A stretch of 8,279 bases of DNA, taken from positions 1 through 8,279 of the IMG/VR virus record IMGVR_UViG_2695420456_000001; one strand, written 5' to 3'. This document shows, in pieces, positions 1 to 4,969 of this stretch (position 1 is the first letter of the stretch; the number at the start of each line of letters is the position of its first letter). A program made the translations under genes and the position numbers. A model generated the notes under the pieces. The model was not told where the DNA came from and did no database searches. It saw only the letters and a program-made list of their open reading frames with translations. This stretch comes from a virus (Duplodnaviria; Heunggongvirae; Uroviricota; Caudoviricetes).

Positions 1-379
1 CCTTGCGCTCTTCCGGCTCAATTTCGCCGTCTGCCTCCGCAATGGCCACCGCCACATCCAGCACATCTTCCGCTTCACGCGTATCGTGTTTCACATCTTC
101 AATTTCACGCAATGCCGCTCGACGACCAATTTTAAAGTTCGTATCCAGCTGACCGATAATGGTTGCGCTAATCGCATTAATTTCTGACGTAAACGCGGAC
201 AACGCAGGCTGGTTACGCAAGACCTGCTCGATCTTCGCTTTCTCTGAAGCCTCACATTCACCATCTGCATAGGCCACCAGATAGGCAGCATTAATAACCG
301 CCTGTGCCAGATCACGTTTCTCAAACTTTTTAATTTCCACTGCCGCTCGGCGGGCTTTTTTACCAAAAATACCAAACAT
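1..379 (-). CDS. TerB-like domain protein, partial (about 126 N-terminal codons; C-terminus lies beyond the window start)
   Basis: ATG at 379..377 with AAAGGAA 7 nt upstream. Own translation MFGIFGKKARRAAVEIKKFEKRDLAQAVINAAYLVAYADGECEASEKAKIEQVL...VAVAIAEADGEIEPEERK shows two ADGE motifs in an Ala/Glu-rich helical context, as in TerB (tellurite-resistance) domains. Frame runs open to position 1. The ORF-track entry 91..408 is a different frame and looks non-protein-like. Confidence 0.55.
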   Translation of the reverse strand, partial: MFGIFGKKARRAAVEIKKFEKRDLAQAVINAAYLVAYADGECEASEKAKIEQVLRNQPALSAFTSEINAISATIIGQLDTNFKIGRRAALREIEDVKHDTREAEDVLDVAVAIAEADGEIEPEERK

Positions 380-511
380 CGTGACGTTCCTTTGGGTGGG
401 TGAGCCAACGCCCGGGAGCGATCTGCCCACAGAGAAAGTCACACTGACCACTCCGTAAGCTCACCCCCGAAAGGCTCTGTGGTTGATATGCGCCGGGCGT
501 GGCGCGGATAC

Positions 512-534
512 AAAAAAGGCCGCCAATAGCGACC
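512..534 (-). terminator. Rho-independent terminator (minus strand) downstream of the 69-aa gene
   Basis: Minus-strand RNA GGUCGC-UAUUG-GCGGCC (6-bp stem with one G.U pair) followed by UUUUUU. The G.U pair becomes a C-A mismatch on the plus strand, so it is minus-specific. Confidence 0.55.
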
Positions 535-568
535 TCAGTTACGGGATTATTCTGGGGTTAAACGACTG

Positions 569-778
569 TTACTCCCCCCAGACAAAATCATCACTTCCTG
601 TTCGATGCGAGCCATAGTGAACCTCGTACTTATCTCCCATCTTTCTTGCTTCCATTTCTGCGTCTTCCTCTGTCGCAAAAACCCCAACAAGATGCCAGGG
701 CGAGCTTCTTACCACAGCCCAACCTTTAACCCATCCTTTGTTGTCCTTATCTTCCATTAACACTTCAGAAACAAACAT
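569..778 (-). CDS. Hypothetical small protein (69 aa), possibly DUF2188-like
   Basis: ATG at 778 with AGGAGA 5 nt upstream; stop TAA at 569-571. Translation MFVSEVLMEDKDNKGWVKGWAVVRSSPWHLVGVFATEEDAEMEARKMGDKYEVHYGSHRTGSDDFVWGE. All three Arg codons are AGA, AGA and CGA. Confidence 0.55.
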   Translation of the reverse strand: MFVSEVLMEDKDNKGWVKGWAVVRSSPWHLVGVFATEEDAEMEARKMGDKYEVHYGSHRTGSDDFVWGE

Positions 779-830
779 ATTTATCTCCTTGTGGGTACCC
801 AGAGATATTTTATGATTGCTCCCGGTCAGA

Positions 831-1055
831 TCAATAAAGTGGCTTCAATTTTGCCTTAATGATCAAATCAGGGTGATTGACGGAATCGTACACCACCTCA
901 ATATTTTCATCCGTGGCGTCGATAAGATATTCTTTTACATAAGGACCTGTTGATTTTCCATGAAATACATCTTCAACAAGTACACTCTCCCCCTGAACAA
1001 CACGAAAACTAACTTCTGTTTCGAACGGACCAATCGTCACCATCAGTTTTTTCAC
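831..1055 (-). CDS. Hypothetical small protein (74 aa), unrecognised family
   Basis: GTG start at 1055 with AGGAGG 4 nt upstream; stop TGA at 831-833. Translation MKKLMVTIGPFETEVSFRVVQGESVLVEDVFHGKSTGPYVKEYLIDATDENIEVVYDSVNHPDLIIKAKLKPLY. No signal peptide is evident. Confidence 0.5.
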   Translation of the reverse strand: MKKLMVTIGPFETEVSFRVVQGESVLVEDVFHGKSTGPYVKEYLIDATDENIEVVYDSVNHPDLIIKAKLKPLY

Positions 1056-1107
1056 ATAGCCTCCTGATAAGCACTCGATTTATTAGTTAATGGTGTAACG
1101 CAGATAC

Positions 1108-1132
1108 AAAAAAAGGCCCGCAAAAGCGAGCC
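1108..1132 (-). terminator. Rho-independent terminator (minus strand) immediately after the tRNA cluster
   Basis: Minus-strand RNA GGCUCGC-UUUU-GCGGGCC (7-bp stem with one G.U pair) followed by UUUUUUU. It is homologous to the 512..534 terminator. Confidence 0.6.
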
Positions 1133-1145
1133 AAGTAAATAAATA

Positions 1146-1222
1146 TGGCACGTTGTACTGGATTCGAACCAGTGACCGATTGCTTAGAAGGCAATTGCTC
1201 TGTCCGACTGAGCTAACAACGC
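1146..1222 (-). tRNA. argO: tRNA-Arg (anticodon UCU)
   Basis: Manual cloverleaf on the reverse complement: acceptor GCGTTGT/ACAACGT, D-arm GCTC..GAGC, anticodon stem ATTGC/GCAAT with loop CTTCTAA, T-arm ACTGG-TTCGAAT-CCAGT, discriminator G, encoded CCA. The symbol is assigned from gene order by analogy with the ileZ-argN-argO cluster of Stx phages. Confidence 0.8.
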
Positions 1223-1235
1223 ATGATGCTGATAA

Positions 1236-1312
1236 TGGACCGCCATCGGGGACTTGAACCCCGCACAGCCAGCTTCGAAGGCTGACGCTCTATCCCGATG
1301 AGCTAATGGCGG
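1236..1312 (-). tRNA. argN: tRNA-Arg (anticodon UCG)
   Basis: Reverse complement folds with acceptor CCGCCAT/ATGGCGG (a C1-G72 pair), D-arm GCTC..GAGC, anticodon stem TCAGC/GCTGG with loop CTTCGAA, T-arm CGGGG-TTCAAGT-CCCCG, discriminator T, encoded CCA. The symbol is assigned by position only. Confidence 0.75.
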
Positions 1313-1319
1313 TATGTGA

Positions 1320-1395
1320 TGGTGGCCCTTGCTGGATTTGAACCAGCGACCTGGCGATTATGAGTCGCTCGCTCTCACCACTGAGCTAAAGGGCC
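1320..1395 (-). tRNA. ileZ: tRNA-Ile2 type (anticodon CAU, lysidine-type; a plain scan would call it Met)
   Basis: Reverse complement GGCCCTTTAGCTCAGTGGTGAGAGCGAGCGACTCATAATCGCCAGGTCGCTGGTTCAAATCCAGCAAGGGCCACCA has a perfect 7-bp acceptor, anticodon loop CTCATAA, T-loop TTCAAAT and encoded CCA. It closely resembles E. coli ileX as recalled. Confidence 0.85.
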
Positions 1396-1435: not shown

Positions 1436-1534
1436 TCATCCGTTCTGACTGACTACATTCTGAACTTCCCTGACCGTCTGCTCAAAACGCCCGCTCTCCA
1501 GCTCAACGCCAATTGCACGACGCCCCAGCGCCAT
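1436..1534 (-). pseudogene. C-terminal remnant of a DNA methyltransferase (about 32-42 codons)
   Basis: Minus-strand translation ...SVKAAMALGRRAIGVELESGRFEQTVREVQNVVSQNG* resembles the C-terminal AdoMet-binding region of beta-class N6/N4 methyltransferases (LGRRxIGxE). There is no catalytic region upstream; the frame runs into the 1558..1586 terminator hairpin. Confidence 0.3.
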
Positions 1535-1557
1535 TGCTGCTTTGACGCTACGGACAT

Positions 1558-1586
1558 AAAAAAGCCAGCCACTGGGGGAGGCTGGC
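1558..1586 (-). terminator. Rho-independent terminator (minus strand), second terminator downstream of the pR'-like promoter
   Basis: Minus-strand RNA GCCAGCC-UCCCCCAGU-GGCUGGC (7-bp GC-rich stem) followed by UUUUUU. Confidence 0.5.
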
Positions 1587-1767
1587 GAAACTCGTAGAGC
1601 AAAAGTGTTGTTACACTAACTTCGTCACAGGGTTATCCTGCAATACTCAAAATACACAATATTTACAAAACTAATAGTATACAAGGCGATCTTTAAGATT
1701 TTGTTATAAATTATTGCCTTTCTCCTCTTTCCATGAGCTTTCTGGATAGCCACAGAATTCCGGGTAC

Positions 1768-1794
1768 AGAAAAACCCGCTCAGCGGCGGGTTTT
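1768..1794 (-). terminator. tR'-like intrinsic terminator about 45-70 nt downstream of the pR'-like start
   Basis: Stem CCCGC/GCGGG (extendable by A-T pairs), loop of 6 nt, followed on the minus strand by UUUUU. A T-run on the other side could allow bidirectional function. Confidence 0.6.
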
Positions 1795-1843
1795 GCTACT
1801 TTGCCATCACGTACAAAATCGGCAAAATATCAGATTTGCATGA

Positions 1844-1872
1844 AATATATGCCTTTTAATCTACTTTTGCAA
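1844..1872 (-). promoter_or_regulatory. pR'-like late promoter immediately after the Q-like gene stop
   Basis: On the minus strand TTGCAA (1872..1867), a 17-nt spacer, TATATT (1849..1844). Predicted start near 1837, with a short leader ending in the 1768..1794 terminator, the arrangement expected for a Q-dependent late promoter. Confidence 0.45.
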
Positions 1873-1876
1873 TACT

Positions 1877-2545
1877 TTACTGTGAAAATGCCGCCTTTTG
1901 TTTTAAACGTGTTCTCGTCACGAACAATAAAGCCTCATTATCCAGCCGGTGAAAAATGTGTTTCATTGCAACCCAGTGGCCAGTAAATGTTTTGGACCAG
2001 TTTTTGGTTGTCACTCCCGCCAGTAATGCCAGCTCCTGGTATTCATAACCTTCCCCACCAAAAAGTTCTGCTTTTACTGCCTGCGCCGCCAGCCAGATTA
2101 ATTTTTTCAGGCGTTCCTGCGTTTTCCCTGCAATTTTTCTGGTACCAGATTGAGTATTAAATTCATTCCACGCCCACTGTGTTATCGCGATCTGATATTC
2201 CCAACAAATGCTCTCGCTGTAACACCACAACAACCAGGCTTTATGATGTTCTTCAAGAGACAGAACAGCCCGCCGCCACGATGATGTCGAAAACTCAACC
2301 GGACTGACCAGAGGAATTGACGTCCCCTTCGCCAGCGATTGCTTCCCCGGGATTGGTGGATTATCCCGCGTTATCATTTTTCCAGTCACTTCATCGCGGT
2401 ACCGGATTTTTTTTCGCCTGTAACGCCCTGTATCGAACATGGCATTCTCTTGCCAGGCTTCAAACTGACCTTTTGTTGCCCCACTCAAATCAGCGGTAGC
2501 GATAATGAGCTGCTCACGCACAAACTGTAAATACTGGTTATTCAT
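1877..2545 (-). CDS. Putative late-gene antiterminator Q-like protein (222 aa), not lambda-Q type
   Basis: Position is canonical: directly after rusA and directly before the pR'-like promoter, tR'-like terminator and tRNA trio. Likely start is ATG 2545, overlapping the rusA stop as ATGA; the track start at 2551 is GTG. No lambda-Q zinc-finger Cys pattern is present, so the family is uncertain and the call rests on synteny. Confidence 0.55.
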   Translation of the reverse strand: MNNQYLQFVREQLIIATADLSGATKGQFEAWQENAMFDTGRYRRKKIRYRDEVTGKMITRDNPPIPGKQSLAKGTSIPLVSPVEFSTSSWRRAVLSLEEHHKAWLLWCYSESICWEYQIAITQWAWNEFNTQSGTRKIAGKTQERLKKLIWLAAQAVKAELFGGEGYEYQELALLAGVTTKNWSKTFTGHWVAMKHIFHRLDNEALLFVTRTRLKQKAAFSQ

Positions 2546-2904
2546 GCGCACTCCAGTTCTGTGATTTTTATTCCAAGCCTCCCACCTGATACTTTCACAC
2601 CACGAATTACGCGAATGTCATCGAATTGCTCGTCGTCTTCCGCAAATCCGGCGTGGATAAGGGAGTCGAGTAAACCTTTCAGGATGTTGTCGAGGTCGCG
2701 GCGGCGGGAGTCTGGAACGTCTGCGATGACTTTGATACGGAGTCGTGATTTGGTGAAAATGTCTAACTTGAGTTGGCGGATGATTTGCTGAACGTCTTTT
2801 CGGTATTTCTGGCCTTTATCGCTGATGTAGTATTGGCTTCCCCGTCTTCGCCAGTAGGTGTTCAGCGACGGCGGATATGGAAGCACAAACTGATATTCGT
2901 TCAT
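2542..2904 (-). CDS. rusA: Holliday-junction resolvase RusA
   Basis: 120 aa, MNEYQFVLPYPPSLNTYW...DSRRRDLDNILKGLLDSLIHAGF...GGRLGIKITELE, matching E. coli RusA hallmarks (PDxRRRDLDN, acidic catalytic residues). Start ATG overlaps the ybcO-like stop as ATGA. Confidence 0.85.
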   Translation of the reverse strand: MNEYQFVLPYPPSLNTYWRRRGSQYYISDKGQKYRKDVQQIIRQLKLDIFTKSRLRIKVIADVPDSRRRDLDNILKGLLDSLIHAGFAEDDEQFDDIRVIRGVKVSGGRLGIKITELECA

Positions 2905-3191
2905 GGCTTAATCTTCCCCTCCTTCAGCAGTATCGCCTGCGTCCTGATCACGCCTTCAAGGTGGTAAAGTCTGGCGTCTTTGTTGTCGAGGTTATGGGTG
3001 CGTCGGTCGATTTCATCGTGACACGCGCTACAAGCCCATGCGCCGATCAGGTCGTCAGGCTTTATTCCCGTTCCGCAAATTCCAGCCATCCGGTAATGTG
3101 CCAGAACTGTAGTTTCAGGGTTTCCATTGCATACGCCGTAAATACGTACCTGGCATTCTCTGCCGCGCGCTTCTTTGCGTAGGTTAGCCAT
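2901..3191 (-). CDS. ybcO: YbcO-like DUF1364 protein (Cys-rich, putative nuclease)
   Basis: 96 aa, MANLRKEARGRECQVRIYGVCNGNPETTVLAHYRMAGICGTGIKPDDLIGAWACSACHDEIDRRTH..., closely resembling DLP12 YbcO as recalled. It sits directly upstream of rusA as in DLP12. Confidence 0.8.
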   Translation of the reverse strand: MANLRKEARGRECQVRIYGVCNGNPETTVLAHYRMAGICGTGIKPDDLIGAWACSACHDEIDRRTHNLDNKDARLYHLEGVIRTQAILLKEGKIKP

Positions 3192-3913
3192 TAAGCAGCC
3201 TCCCCTGTTACTTTCAGCATTCCGTTATCGAGCAGCTTTCTGGTCAGCCACTGTTGACCACGCCCGGTGATTTTTGTGGTGAACGATATCTGTATTCCGT
3301 GATTTGTATTGACCGCTGTTTCTTTCACTGTGAAATAGCCGCGATCCATATATTCCTGCATTGGCACATTGCGCCGGGAACCTGAAGCAATAAGGATTTT
3401 GTGTTCGCGCATCCACGCAAACAGTTTGTTTGGACCAATACCAACAACCTTTGCATAGTTTCCAATCAAAATTCCGCTGGCCTCGCCAACGCGATCGGCA
3501 AACTCAACTTTAGGTGCGGCAATTGCGAGCTGGTTTTCCAGTTGCATTTTCTGCTCAGCAAGATCAGCAGCAAGGCGCAACGCTTCTGGTAGAGTTTTGG
3601 GGATATTAACCGCAGCGTCTTCAAGCTCTCGCCAACGGTCAACAAGACGAGCGGTGAATTCCGGCGACAACTGGGCAACGACAATAATGCTGTCTCGCTT
3701 ACCTTGTTCGCCTTCGAATACATACACACGAAAACTTTGATTTAAGCCTAACCCATTGATTCTTCCACAATCCTCAATTTGAGGATGTCGGATAACACCA
3801 TTTTTAGCCAGCATTTCGATAGTACGTTTCACATTGTCATGACGCTTACCTGTAAGCTCAGAGATTTCAATGCTGGTCATTTTGATGACGTTGCTATTTA
3901 TCAGCTCGTTCAT
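3191..3913 (-). CDS. Phage antirepressor (Rha-type N-terminal domain, KilAC/ANT C-terminal domain)
   Basis: N-terminus ...MTSIEISELTGKRHDNVKRTIEML... is Rha-like; C-terminus ...YAKVVGIGPNKLFAWMREHKIL...NVPMQEYMDRGYF... is KilAC-like. The second ATG (3913) has GAGAGGA 7 nt upstream; the first ATG (3919) is only 1 nt from it. The stop overlaps the ybcO start as TAATG. Confidence 0.8.
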   Translation of the reverse strand: MNELINSNVIKMTSIEISELTGKRHDNVKRTIEMLAKNGVIRHPQIEDCGRINGLGLNQSFRVYVFEGEQGKRDSIIVVAQLSPEFTARLVDRWRELEDAAVNIPKTLPEALRLAADLAEQKMQLENQLAIAAPKVEFADRVGEASGILIGNYAKVVGIGPNKLFAWMREHKILIASGSRRNVPMQEYMDRGYFTVKETAVNTNHGIQISFTTKITGRGQQWLTRKLLDNGMLKVTGEAA

Positions 3914-3946
3914 TGTCATGTCCTCTCATATTGAAAATTCACCAAT

Positions 3947-3987: not shown

Positions 3988-4692
3988 TCAGTAGCGATGT
4001 AGTGAAGGAGGTAATTCTTTGTTCTTAAGCCTTACCCATGCGGAAAGATTCGTTGGTCCGTCTGGCTCATTAATATCAACATCTCGTGTGTGATTGATTA
4101 AAACGTCTCTCGCCATTCCAATAACATACGAGAACTCATGACCGTAGTCGTAACATCTGCCGGAATAGTTCGATTGAATTTGCTTTAGCGCTGGATACAA
4201 TTCGCGGAATAATGCCTGTGAGCGGTTAGCATAATCCCACAGCCATACAAGGCTGTCTGTTTCTTTTGCGGAAAGCCCGTTGAGCTTCTTCTCTTGTTTG
4301 CCAGTATTTTTCTCGCACTGGCTGAAATAGCAGTCTTCCAGTTTTTCGAACACTTCCCACGCCTGATCGGTTTCGAGCATTTTGGCGTGACGGGCTGCTC
4401 CGCGTTCTGTCCAGAGGATGAGGGAGCGGGCTTTCGGGGAAATTTGTAACCCTCTTAAAGATGGTTGCAAATTTTGTGAGTTACTTAAAGTAACCCGCAA
4501 AATTTTCAACTCATCACCAACAACCTTGAAAAAGTGTTTACCCTCAACAAAACGCTCGGAATTACGGGTGTAATTTACTTTGATGTTGTTGATCTCGGTA
4601 CAGTAAAGCTGTGCCAGTAACTCGGTAGTGATAACGGGAATTTGGTTGTGTGTAATTGGGGAAAGAGTTTCGACAGAAATCTGAGTGGCCAT
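3988..4692 (-). CDS. ORF6N-domain phage protein (Roi/antirepressor-like)
   Basis: N-terminus ...[10 protein letters not shown]...[11 protein letters not shown]...[16 protein letters not shown] is characteristic of ORF6N/Bro-N-related domains. Probable start is ATG 4692 (GGAG 9 nt upstream) rather than the track start at 4710. Confidence 0.7.
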
Positions 4693-4856
4693 AACGATAA
4701 CTCCGTACATTTGGACATTATCGCCACCGTCAGGTGCTAATCATCATGGTGGCGAACTGTGCGGGGTTAGCACTACCGGGTACGGAAACCGGCGAGCCTT
4801 TCGGCTCCCCCACACAGCCCGCCATAAATCGCGAATGTGACTGTGCAAACGATATG

Positions 4857-4877
4857 AAAAAAGACGCGGGCGCGTCT
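4857..4877 (-). terminator. Rho-independent terminator (minus strand) downstream of ninE
   Basis: Minus-strand RNA GACGCG-CC-CGCGUC (GC-rich 6-bp stem, minimal loop) followed by UUUUUU, inside a larger imperfect palindrome GATATGA...TCATATC. Confidence 0.6.
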
Positions 4878-4969
4878 CATATCGCTCCGTAAACATCCGG
4901 GGTGCTAATCCCGACGCCAGATTTTGCTGGCGCGTGAGGAATATAGCCCCGAATAAATCATCGCGTCAA

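What the first reader, a model, noticed from the sequence alone, without database searches (positions are those of the whole stretch)
497..1135. Two-gene cassette bracketed by a duplicated terminator element of about 35 bp
GATACAAAAAAGGCCGCCAATAGCGACC (about 507..534) and GATACAAAAAAAGGCCCGCAAAAGCGAGCC (about 1103..1132) are clearly homologous, including the same G.U position in the stem. They are oriented as direct repeats and flank exactly the 569..1055 gene pair. This is the footprint expected if the cassette was inserted by recombination at a terminator, duplicating it (a moron promoter-less unit ending in its own terminator).
Basis: seen in the sequence. Interest (0 to 1): 0.5.

Follow-up and report, generated by a model that had tools for sequence, protein, structure and literature searches.

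The report
Prophage gene cassette between two terminators
A pair of small genes of unknown function, carrying its own transcription stop signal, sits just after the stop signal of a prophage's tRNA genes, at the spot where related phages carry the Shiga toxin genes; this is an ordinary example of how such phages collect extra genes.

Summary
Two intrinsic terminators on the minus strand (1099-1132 and 503-536), in direct orientation, bracket a two-gene unit (831-1055 and 569-778). They share a 19-nt core that no shuffle reproduces.

The window is the late-regulatory region of a Stx-type lambdoid prophage, in the order Q, pR'/tR', three tRNAs, terminator, cassette, terminator, TerB gene. The predicted empty site exists: phage Evi and 826 of 5426 complete E. 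coli genomes join the tRNA terminator directly to the TerB leader with one terminator. The cassette is in 93 genomes. In 933W, stx2A follows the same tRNA terminator.

The "duplication" reading is only partly right. The distal hairpin stays with the cassette. It is nearly invariant in all cassette loci, and the same stem, often with a similar tail after the T-tract, follows cassette homologues in most sampled Xenorhabdus species. The proximal copy varies with the tRNA module.

The two terminators are therefore best read as members of one extended terminator family, joined at a roughly 15-19 nt shared stretch. A fresh copy made at insertion is less likely.

This is a new member of a known kind (a moron at the known pR' moron site). 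The function of the two genes remains unknown.

The parts
1146..1395 (-). tRNA cluster of the prophage: tRNA(CAU) at 1320-1395 (called Met by ARAGORN; annotated ileZ/tRNA-Ile in 933W and RefSeq), tRNA-Arg(UCG) at 1236-1312, tRNA-Arg(UCU) at 1146-1222.
   Evidence: ARAGORN and Rfam tRNA hits. The region is 92% identical to the ileZ-argN-argO region of phage 933W.
1099..1132 (-). Proximal terminator 'J', the terminator of the tRNA cluster. Hairpin 1115-1132 (GGCUCGC-UUUU-GCGGGCC), T-tract 1108-1114, tail GTATCTGCG 1099-1107.
   Evidence: Terminator scan and fold of -14.8 kcal/mol, z -3.6. It is the orthologue of the terminator annotated upstream of stx2A in 933W. Homology to Stx2 phages ends at 1099.
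831..1055 (-). First cassette gene, 74 aa, acidic (net charge -4), GTG start with an AGGAGG ribosome-binding site. Function unknown.
   Evidence: ORF list. RefSeq calls the E110019 copy (WP_000735807.1) a hypothetical protein. It matches phrog_2571, unknown function, with no Pfam, NCBIfam or PADLOC hit. Homologous partners of 31-45% identity sit upstream of the second gene in 7 other lineages.
779..830 (-). Intergenic region with a sigma-70-like site (TTGATC, 16 nt, TAAAAT; 834-807) and the conserved palindrome GGGTACCC (793-800) just before the ribosome-binding site of the second gene.
   Evidence: Promoter scan. The palindrome is kept in E. coli, Salmonella and most Xenorhabdus species while the rest of the spacer has diverged.
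569..778 (-). Second cassette gene, 69 aa, acidic (net charge -6). Function unknown.
   Evidence: ORF list. RefSeq calls the E110019 copy (WP_000498119.1) a hypothetical protein. It matches phrog_4280 at E 2e-40 and DUF7336 only below threshold. Homologues occur in Salmonella, Xenorhabdus, Yersinia, Pseudomonas and others.
503..536 (-). Distal terminator, the cassette's own. Hairpin 518-534 (GGUCGC-UAUUG-GCGGCC; extended stem 516-536), T-tract 512-517, tail GTATCCGCG 503-511.
   Evidence: Terminator scan and fold. The hairpin is constant, apart from one Y position, in all ~27 tail-linked cassette loci and accompanies the cassette in Salmonella L185/L034. The same stem follows cassette homologues in Xenorhabdus.
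380..505 (-). Leader of the TerB module. It begins with the G+C hairpin GCGCCACGCCCGGCGC (490-505) followed by ATATCAACCACAGAG. In empty-site alleles this 'tail' follows the tRNA terminator directly.
   Evidence: Sequence comparison of the window with L001, L002 and L003, a scan for the tail in viral contigs, and the fold of the empty site.
2..379 (-). 5' part of a TerB-family gene, the next module. It runs off the window.
   Evidence: Pfam TerB, E 6.5e-12. RefSeq annotates it as a tellurite resistance TerB family protein in L002, L003, L004 and L198.
1550..2551 (-). Upstream context that drives late transcription through the cassette: the antiterminator Q gene (1877-2551) and the pR'/tR' region with two further minus-strand terminator-like hairpin plus T-tract elements (about 1551-1590 and 1761-1800).
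   Evidence: Pfam Phage_antiter_Q, E 5e-91. The repeat family D2 and direct reading of the sequence show the hairpin plus T-tract elements; the terminator scan did not list them. Homology to the 933W region with annotated pR', qut and terminators.

Best explanation
The 569-1055 gene pair plus the distal terminator is a moron: a mobile two-gene unit that carries its own intrinsic terminator. It lies in the late-operon leader of a Stx-type lambdoid prophage, immediately after the intrinsic terminator of the phage tRNA cluster. This is the slot where Stx2 phages carry stx2AB.

The ancestral arrangement is tRNA, terminator J, tail, TerB. The cassette was joined in by recombination between phages. 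The left joint lies 9 nt after the J T-tract. The right joint lies inside a stretch of about 15-19 nt that the cassette's terminator and J share (GGCC T6-7 GTATCY GCG). The shared stretch exists because both terminators belong to one extended terminator family, roughly SS(C)UCGC, N4-5, GCGG(G)SS, U5-7, (C)RUAUCYG. The bracket is therefore two paralogous terminators. It is not a copy made at insertion.

Proposed function, inferred by analogy with stx2 in 933W and not measured here. In the lysogen the proximal terminator ends the tRNA transcripts and any pR' leak. The distal one stops transcripts that start inside the cassette from entering TerB and the lysis genes. After induction, Q-modified RNA polymerase from pR' reads through both, so the cassette is expressed with the late genes.

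Shown: the anatomy, the empty site, the shared junction with stx2, the linkage of the distal hairpin to the cassette, and stacking of further cargo. Inferred: the recombination route and the pattern of expression.
For: Anatomy and terminators.

Empty site with one terminator: phage Evi, KE26 and O157:H7, and 826 of 5426 genomes at 90-100% identity. The cassette is in 93 genomes, mostly at 99% identity or more. Its G+C is 38-45%, against 50-57% in the flanks.

Same slot as stx2AB: homology to Stx2 phages stops at 1099, and 933W has the same hairpin followed by T6 ATATCTGCGCC and then stx2A. The literature calls this region the moron insertion site downstream of pR' (PMC4104026).

Breakpoints of different cargos fall 0 to about 45 nt after the same T-tract.

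The distal hairpin is linked to the cassette. It is constant, apart from one Y position, in ~27 tail-linked loci, while the proximal loop varies. It goes with the cassette in Salmonella, where the downstream flank is an STnc100-like sRNA. The core UC[G/A]C-loop-G[C/U]GG follows the cassette in 5 of the 7 lineages, against roughly 3% of unselected terminators. Most Xenorhabdus species keep the stem, and several have a similar tail after the T-tract, such as T5 CGTATCTGC.

The two genes are a conserved pair in 8 lineages. In some phages they sit directly after Rz, at another position, with a terminator only downstream.

Stacking: an RmrT/RmrA unit lies behind the cassette with a third terminator and a 35-nt repeat of the tail. 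It is present in 2 complete genomes.

Lambda Red recombines diverged and short homologies efficiently (PMC2327257).
Against: No transcription data were available, so termination, read-through by Q and any cassette promoter are untested.

The polarity of the event is inferred only from frequency and diversity. Deletion by recombination between the two terminators would yield an allele indistinguishable from the empty site.

The Salmonella block looks derived (two tRNAs only, inserted into an sRNA gene). It therefore does not prove that GTATCC belonged to the cassette before the cassette met the TerB tail.

Two cassette lineages (L009, L192) have unrelated terminators, and adds three more in Enterobacterales (Pseudocitrobacter, Yersinia, Scandinavium). 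The identical hairpin also occurs in unrelated phages, so part of the hairpin conservation could be convergence.

The 35-nt tail repeat around RmrTA is longer than a microhomology joint requires.
Confidence: 0.7

Rival explanations
1. One reading: the cassette arrived without a terminator of this type, and the insertion event itself duplicated the resident tRNA terminator. One example would be integration of a circular intermediate by a single crossover inside the terminator. The distal copy has diverged since.
For: The empty site has exactly one copy. The two copies share the T-tract, GTATCYGCG and a similar stem with the G.U at the same place. RmrTA in L063 and the tRNA-plus-cassette block in Salmonella are also flanked by direct repeats of 22-35 nt whose single copy is seen in relatives. 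That pattern is what a Campbell-type single crossover would leave.
Against: The distal hairpin differs from J by loss of a base pair and by loop changes, whereas J stems rarely vary (mainly loop changes) across empty sites that differ by up to 10%. The distal hairpin stem, often with a similar tail, follows cassette homologues in most sampled Xenorhabdus species, far from any J. The proximal copy varies with the tRNA module and the distal does not.
Confidence: 0.15
2. The cassette-bearing arrangement is ancestral, and the 'empty' alleles arose by deletion through recombination between the two similar terminators.
For: A crossover in the shared 15-19 nt would give the empty-site sequence exactly (proximal hairpin plus distal tail), as seen in KE26. 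Some genomes carry both alleles in different prophages.
Against: Empty alleles are about nine times more frequent and much more diverse (90-100% identity) than cassette alleles, most of which are 99% identical or more. Other cargos (stx2AB, RmrTA, an AraC-family gene and others) break the same tail at different points, which fits repeated insertion into an intact J-tail. The cassette has deviating G+C.
Confidence: 0.07
3. There is no relationship at all. Two unrelated terminators happen to look alike because all intrinsic terminators share a G+C stem and a T-tract.
For: The identical 17-nt distal hairpin with a T-tract occurs in about nine unrelated viral contexts. The hairpin-only score against J is matched by two apparently unrelated terminators in a 152-member set that also contains J relatives. 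RTATC after the T-tract occurs in about 5% of other terminators in these loci.
Against: The match continues 9 nt past the T-tract with one transition, and three further differences in the next seven bases are all transitions. No shuffle out of 200 and none out of 5000 reaches it. The empty site shows that the distal tail is the same DNA that follows J when the cassette is absent.
Confidence: 0.05

Closest known systems
stx2AB moron of Stx2 phages (933W, Sp5/VT2-Sakai) at the pR'-downstream moron insertion site
   Same: Same backbone position: Q, pR'/tR', ileZ-argN-argO, and the same terminator hairpin GGCTCGCTTTTGCGGGCC, with the cargo starting within 11 nt of the T-tract. In 933W, expression depends on Q-mediated read-through. 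The site is described as a moron insertion site (PMC4104026).
   Different: The cargo here is two small acidic proteins of unknown function. In 933W, stx2AB occupies the place of TerB-DUF3927 between J and the STnc100 sRNA. Here the cassette is added in front of TerB-DUF3927. No toxin is involved.
Morons of lambdoid phages as defined for HK97/HK022 (Juhala et al. 2000, as cited in PMC4104026; review PMC3594210): an extra gene with its own terminator and often its own promoter, between backbone genes
   Same: It is present or absent between otherwise collinear relatives. It has its own terminator and deviating G+C. It is found at different backbone positions in different phages: after the tRNAs here, after Rz in AR_0013 and others.
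   Different: A promoter for the first gene is not evident. The joint uses a stretch shared between the moron's terminator and the resident terminator, so the product looks like a duplicated terminator.
Terminator annotated in 933W as 'possible rho-independent terminator upstream of the stx genes'
   Same: It is the orthologue of the proximal element: same hairpin and same distance from tRNA-Arg(UCU).
   Different: In 933W the tail reads ATATCTGCGCC and is followed by stx2A. Here it reads GTATCTGCG and is followed by the cassette.
Integron gene cassettes separated by attC hairpin sites
   Same: There are arrays of mostly promoter-less cargo units, each ending in an imperfect hairpin-containing repeat. 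The units can be stacked, as in cassette then RmrTA in L063 and strain N51.
   Different: No integrase or attI lies nearby. The repeats are transcription terminators in the sense orientation and are not fixed recombination sites. Breakpoints vary by 0 to about 45 nt. This is a resemblance in layout only.

Membership tests
Moron of a lambdoid phage | Extra DNA present in some phages and precisely absent from otherwise collinear relatives (an empty site exists). | tested here: met
   Phage Evi, KE26 and O157:H7 have tRNA, one terminator, then the TerB leader. The empty site is in 826 of 5426 genomes and the cassette in 93.
Moron of a lambdoid phage | Its own transcription terminator at the 3' end. 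| tested here: met
   Hairpin plus T-tract at 512-536. The same stem follows homologous cassettes in Salmonella and most sampled Xenorhabdus species. Termination activity itself was not measured.
Moron of a lambdoid phage | Its own promoter, allowing expression from the repressed prophage. | tested here: inconclusive
   No promoter-like site lies in the 43 nt before the first gene. One 9-of-12 match (834-807) lies before the second gene, next to a conserved palindrome. No expression data are available.
Moron of a lambdoid phage | Base composition differing from the surrounding phage DNA. | tested here: met
   G+C is 0.385-0.455 across 601-1100, against 0.49-0.575 in the flanks.
pR'-downstream moron insertion site of Stx-type prophages | Located downstream of Q, pR' and tR' and the tRNA genes, at the junction used by stx2AB. 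| tested here: met
   Q lies at 1877-2551. Positions 1099-1792 are 92% identical to the 933W pR'-to-tRNA region, and the homology ends at the terminator tail.
pR'-downstream moron insertion site of Stx-type prophages | sRNA genes (STnc100, with AsxR-type anti-sRNAs in 933W) between the cargo and the conserved esterase gene. | tested here: met
   STnc100 lies between DUF3927 and the esterase gene in the near-identical locus of E110019 and in O157:H7. STnc100 and AsxR lie after stx2B in 933W. This region is outside the window, and AsxR was not found in L198 or L003.
Intrinsic (Rho-independent) terminator | G+C-rich hairpin immediately followed by a run of U on the transcribed strand. | tested here: met
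   Both elements pass the scan and fold at -14.2 and -14.8 kcal/mol. On the + strand they lack a T-tract, so they are unidirectional.
Intrinsic (Rho-independent) terminator | Transcripts end in the U-tract in vivo or in vitro. | not testable with these tools
   Needs term-seq, 3' RACE or in vitro transcription.
Target-site duplication by a transposase, or an attC-type site-specific cassette | A recombinase or transposase encoded in or next to the unit. | tested here: not met
   The cassette encodes only the 74-aa and 69-aa proteins, with no recombinase family hits. The neighbours are tRNAs and TerB.
Target-site duplication by a transposase, or an attC-type site-specific cassette | Exact repeats of fixed length at both ends, with the same breakpoint for every insertion. 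| tested here: not met
   The repeats are imperfect (35 of 50) and the hairpins differ. Different cargos break the tail at different positions, 0 to about 45 nt after the T-tract.

The most novel reading that the evidence does not exclude
The terminators at this locus may be more than insulators. They could be a dedicated family of about 40-nt junction elements (stem SS(C)UCGC..GCGG(G)SS, a U-tract, then RUAUCYG, sometimes with a second G+C hairpin). Phage recombinases would use them as short-homology linkers. The leader of the late operon would then behave like an integrase-free cassette array, in which stx, defence units (RmrTA), TerB and unknown pairs such as this one are inserted, stacked and exchanged between prophages of E. 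coli, Salmonella and Xenorhabdus.
Probability: 0.2. Interest if true: 0.6.

Novelty: new member of a known kind. Interest (0 to 1): 0.35.

Why it matters
The position is the one that holds the Shiga toxin genes in Stx2 phages. The comparisons show that this slot takes many different cargos: stx2AB, TerB-DUF3927, this pair, an RmrTA defence unit and an AraC-family gene. All are joined within a few bases of the same terminator, and cargos can be stacked.

This bears on an old question in phage evolution: whether mosaic joints arise at random and are then selected, or at short conserved linkers. It also gives a simple marker, the tRNA terminator and its tail, for cataloguing accessory genes at the stx locus.

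The cassette itself is a conserved two-gene pair found from E. coli to Xenorhabdus, often near defence, toxin-antitoxin or Acb2/Tad1-domain genes. It has no known function and would be a reasonable candidate for a defence or counter-defence test.

Tried and rejected
1. Cargo function. Pfam, NCBIfam and PADLOC gave nothing above threshold. PHROGs gave only families of unknown function. A sequence search of the PDB found nothing. AlphaFold models were too poor (pLDDT 45 and 59) to justify fold searches. The exhaustive HMMER search found only 11 representatives for the 74-aa protein. A literature search for DUF7336 returned no papers.

2. Hairpin similarity as proof of duplication. This was rejected because the same hairpin recurs in unrelated phages and the hairpin-only score is not exceptional.

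3. Transposon or integron-type insertion. This was rejected because there is no recombinase and the repeats are imperfect with variable breakpoints.

4. Partial cassette hits in O145 and other genomes as independent contexts. These turned out to be IS3/IS600 disruptions of the same locus.

5. A known RNA family in the terminators or the TerB leader. Rfam found none at gathering threshold.

6. A sigma-70 promoter formed by the T-tract plus GTAT and a downstream -10. Inspection by eye found only weak matches, so no claim is made.
Full report
**What the window is.** All genes in the window lie on the minus strand and form the late-regulatory part of a lambdoid prophage. Replication gene P and nin-type genes are followed by an antiterminator Q gene (1877-2551; Pfam Phage_antiter_Q, E 5e-91). 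Next come a pR'/tR' region and three tRNA genes (1146-1395), then the feature under study, then the start of a TerB-family gene (2-379). Positions 1099-1792 are 92% identical to the pR'-ileZ-argN-argO region of Stx2 phages such as 933W.

**Check of the observation.** Read on the minus strand, each is an intrinsic terminator.
- The proximal element has the hairpin GGCUCGC-UUUU-GCGGGCC at 1115-1132, then U7, then GUAUCUGCG.
- The distal element has the hairpin GGUCGC-UAUUG-GCGGCC at 518-534 (extendable to 516-536), then U6, then GUAUCCGCG.
- Both are found by the terminator scan and fold at -14.8 and -14.2 kcal/mol.

They are direct repeats and bracket the 74-aa ORF (831-1055) and the 69-aa ORF (569-778). 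The 51-nt elements align with 35 of 50 identities, and the match continues past the T-tract. The local score is reached by 0 of 5000 shuffles. The 19-mer core occurs twice, against 0 in 200 dinucleotide-preserving shuffles.

**The empty site exists.** Phage Evi joins the TerB leader to tRNA-Arg through a single terminator. Its hairpin is the proximal type and its tail is the distal type. E. coli KE26 and O157:H7 YB14-1 show the same arrangement, and in KE26 the TerB-side flank is identical to the window up to the T-tract. A 156-nt query spanning the empty junction is found intact in 826 of 5426 complete E. coli genomes at 90-100% identity. The full cassette is in 93 genomes, mostly of O26, O111, O145 and O157 strains, and most copies are 99% identical or more. 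Partial cassette hits are IS3/IS600 disruptions of the same locus. The cassette has 38-45% G+C against 50-57% in the flanks. The greater frequency and diversity of the empty allele, together with the composition, point to insertion. Deletion by recombination between the two terminators would give the same sequence and cannot be excluded for individual genomes.

**The site is the stx2 slot and a hot spot.** In 933W the same hairpin is followed by T6 ATATCTGCGCC and then stx2A. The record annotates it as a possible terminator upstream of stx. Downstream of stx2B lie the sRNA genes STnc100 and AsxR. In TerB-type prophages, STnc100 lies after TerB-DUF3927. stx2AB and TerB-DUF3927 are therefore alternative cargos between the tRNA terminator ('J') and STnc100, and the present cassette is an additional unit in front of TerB. 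Tree et al. 2014 already describe the DNA downstream of pR' as a moron insertion site that holds stx2 (PMC4104026).

A scan of viral contigs for the TerB-side tail (GCGCCACRCCCGGCRCATATCAA) gave mostly empty sites (about 80), with the last tRNA 42-45 nt upstream. It also gave the cassette (about 640 nt upstream) and several other cargos, each ending in its own hairpin followed by T5-7, RTWTCC and the tail. These include single genes, a small membrane ORF and an AraC-family gene. One locus is broken exactly at the start of the tail. Across alleles the breakpoints fall 0 to about 45 nt after the J T-tract.

**Stacking.** In contig L063 the cassette and its terminator-plus-tail are followed by a two-gene RmrT/RmrA unit (PADLOC E 2e-17 and 2e-103). 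That unit is followed by a third terminator (GGCTCGC-TACT-GCGAGCC, T6, ATTTCC) and the tail again, giving a 35-nt direct repeat around the second cargo. The same arrangement is present at 80% coverage or more in two complete E. coli genomes, one of which (strain N51) matches at 100% identity.

**Whose terminator is the distal one?** Several results tie it to the cassette and argue against a fresh copy of J.
- In all ~27 tail-linked cassette-bearing loci the distal hairpin is GGTCGCYATTGGCGGCC. The proximal hairpin shows the same loop variants (TTTT, TTTG, TTCG) as empty sites do.
- In a Salmonella prophage (L185, identical in arrangement to L034) the block of two tRNAs, J, cassette and distal terminator ends at GTATCC. 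It is followed by the 3' part of an STnc100-like gene, whose 5' part lies before the tRNAs with a 22-24 nt overlap.
- The two genes are a conserved pair. Partners 31-45% identical to the 74-aa protein sit upstream of homologues of the 69-aa protein in seven further lineages beyond the 93% Salmonella copy. The pair lies between Q and the holin, or directly after Rz.
- Among the seven lineages, five have a downstream terminator with the core UC[G/A]C-loop-G[C/U]GG and the G.U as the fourth pair from the loop. Only about 3% of roughly 130 unselected terminators in the fetched loci have this core.
- In species-representative genomes, most Xenorhabdus species carry GG(G)UCGC-loop-GCGGCC after the cassette. 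The tails after the T-tract include T5 CGTATCTGC (X. budapestensis) and CATATCTGG (X. hominickii).

The distal element, including its RTATCYG tail, is therefore the cassette's own terminator. J has the same core and tail. The two are best described as members of one extended terminator family. The shared GGCC T6-7 GTATCY(GCG) is the natural place for the right-hand joint. Lambda Red is known to recombine diverged and short homologies efficiently (PMC2327257). Whether this prophage encodes such a system cannot be seen in the window.

**Caveats.** The identical 17-nt hairpin plus a T-tract occurs in about nine unrelated viral contexts. The hairpin-only score against J is matched by two apparently unrelated terminators in a 152-member set that also contains J relatives. 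RTATC follows the T-tract in about 5% of other terminators in these loci, against about 1.6% background. Hairpin resemblance alone therefore proves little, and some convergence is possible. Two cassette lineages (L009, L192), plus three further Enterobacterales representatives (Pseudocitrobacter, Yersinia, Scandinavium), have unrelated terminators. The Salmonella block looks derived. The repeats of 22-35 nt around the Salmonella block and around RmrTA, and a repeated unit of about 110 nt in Xenorhabdus bakwenae, are longer than a microhomology joint needs. They keep open a route through single-crossover integration of circular intermediates or through unequal crossing-over.

**How it most likely works.** In the repressed prophage the proximal terminator ends the tRNA transcripts and any transcription escaping tR'. 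The distal terminator keeps transcripts that start in the cassette out of TerB and the lysis genes. These could start at the sigma-70-like site at 834-807, which lies next to the conserved palindrome GGGTACCC at 793-800. After induction, Q-modified polymerase from pR' reads through both terminators, as established for stx2 at the homologous place. The cassette is then made with the late proteins. These steps are inferred from anatomy and homology, and none was measured.

**Cargo function.** Both proteins are small and acidic (net charge -4 and -6), with no family of known function and no relative of solved structure. The structure models were of low confidence. In other genomes the neighbours include HicAB, ParDE, a SIR2-domain gene and Acb2/Tad1-domain genes. 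That is compatible with a role in phage-phage or phage-host conflict, but this is a guess.

**Verdict.** The 'cassette at a terminator with an empty-site allele' reading is right. The 'terminator was duplicated by the insertion' reading is not supported. This is an undescribed but ordinary moron at a known moron site. It has one point of wider interest: cargos at the stx slot are joined at, and separated by, members of one terminator family.

Noticed in passing
window 4745-4946 (-): Rfam finds a C4 antisense RNA (4745-4829), isrK (4857-4933) and the c4 a1/b1 target (4894-4946), next to ORFs of 240 aa and 242 aa at 3988-4710 and 3191-3919 that were not characterised. This may be a P1/P7-type c4-ant immunity module inside a lambdoid prophage.
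   Followed up: no
window 1436-1546 (-): This is only the 3' end (about 32 codons) of a DNA methyltransferase gene that is full length (about 352 aa) in KE26, OkiPb01696 and L063. 933W-type phages match across this stretch, so they probably carry the same remnant between tR' and the tRNAs.
   Followed up: partly
window 380-505; L001 2881-3000; L003 1497-1620; L063 2480-2570: The leader of the TerB gene holds a homopolymer of variable length (5 C on the + strand here, 7 in L063, 10 in O157:H7, 11 in phage Evi). It also has long-range inverted repeats (CCACAGAG/CTCTGTGG and GGGTGAGC/GCTCACCC). It could be a structured or phase-variable leader. There is no Rfam family at gathering threshold.
   Followed up: no
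window 793-800 (palindrome) and 807-834 (promoter-like site): The palindrome GGGTACCC, just before the ribosome-binding site of the 69-aa gene, is conserved in E. coli, Salmonella and most Xenorhabdus species, although the rest of the spacer has diverged. A -10-like hexamer lies a few bases upstream. It may be an operator or an RNA element.
   Followed up: partly
L063 2570-4620; E. coli N51 NZ_CM165887.1 2836994-2839254: An RmrT/RmrA toxin-antitoxin defence unit is stacked directly behind the cassette. It is bracketed by a 35-nt repeat of the terminator tail and followed by a third terminator.
   Followed up: yes
L185 3336-4358 (Salmonella enterica GCA_004307725.1); same arrangement in L034: An STnc100-like sRNA gene is split by an 810-nt block (two tRNA-Arg genes, J, the cassette and its terminator). 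A 22-24 nt stretch containing the hairpin CCGGGAGGCACCCGG is present on both sides.
   Followed up: yes
L187 3140-3665 (Xenorhabdus bakwenae CP119194.1): Upstream of the cassette homologue, a unit of about 110 nt ending in a GGCTGCGC-type terminator occurs twice. The sequence TTTTTGGTCGCCAACTACCG also occurs twice, around an 84-aa ORF. This looks like a second example of cargo separated by repeated junctions.
   Followed up: partly
window 505-525, 1101-1121, 1551-1571, 1761-1781: All four minus-strand hairpin plus T-tract elements between Q and TerB end in a T-tract followed by (A/C)TGT(A)YC-like bases (repeat family D2). RTATC after the T-tract is several-fold enriched among terminators of the fetched phage loci.
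   Followed up: partly
L138, L155, L157, L181 (viral contigs); L138 5292-5463: Prophages with a different tRNA set carry a non-coding stretch of about 400 nt between the tRNAs and the J terminator. It contains the hairpin motif CGGGAGGCACCCG seen in STnc100, but Rfam did not call STnc100 in L138. L138 also has a sok antitoxin RNA hit elsewhere.
   Followed up: no
L199-L224: Homologues of the 69-aa protein reach well beyond Enterobacterales (Pseudomonas, Azotobacter, Stutzerimonas, Ralstonia, Bordetella, Caulobacteraceae). In a few cases (149-356 aa) the crude ORF extension suggests it may be part of a longer protein.
   Followed up: no
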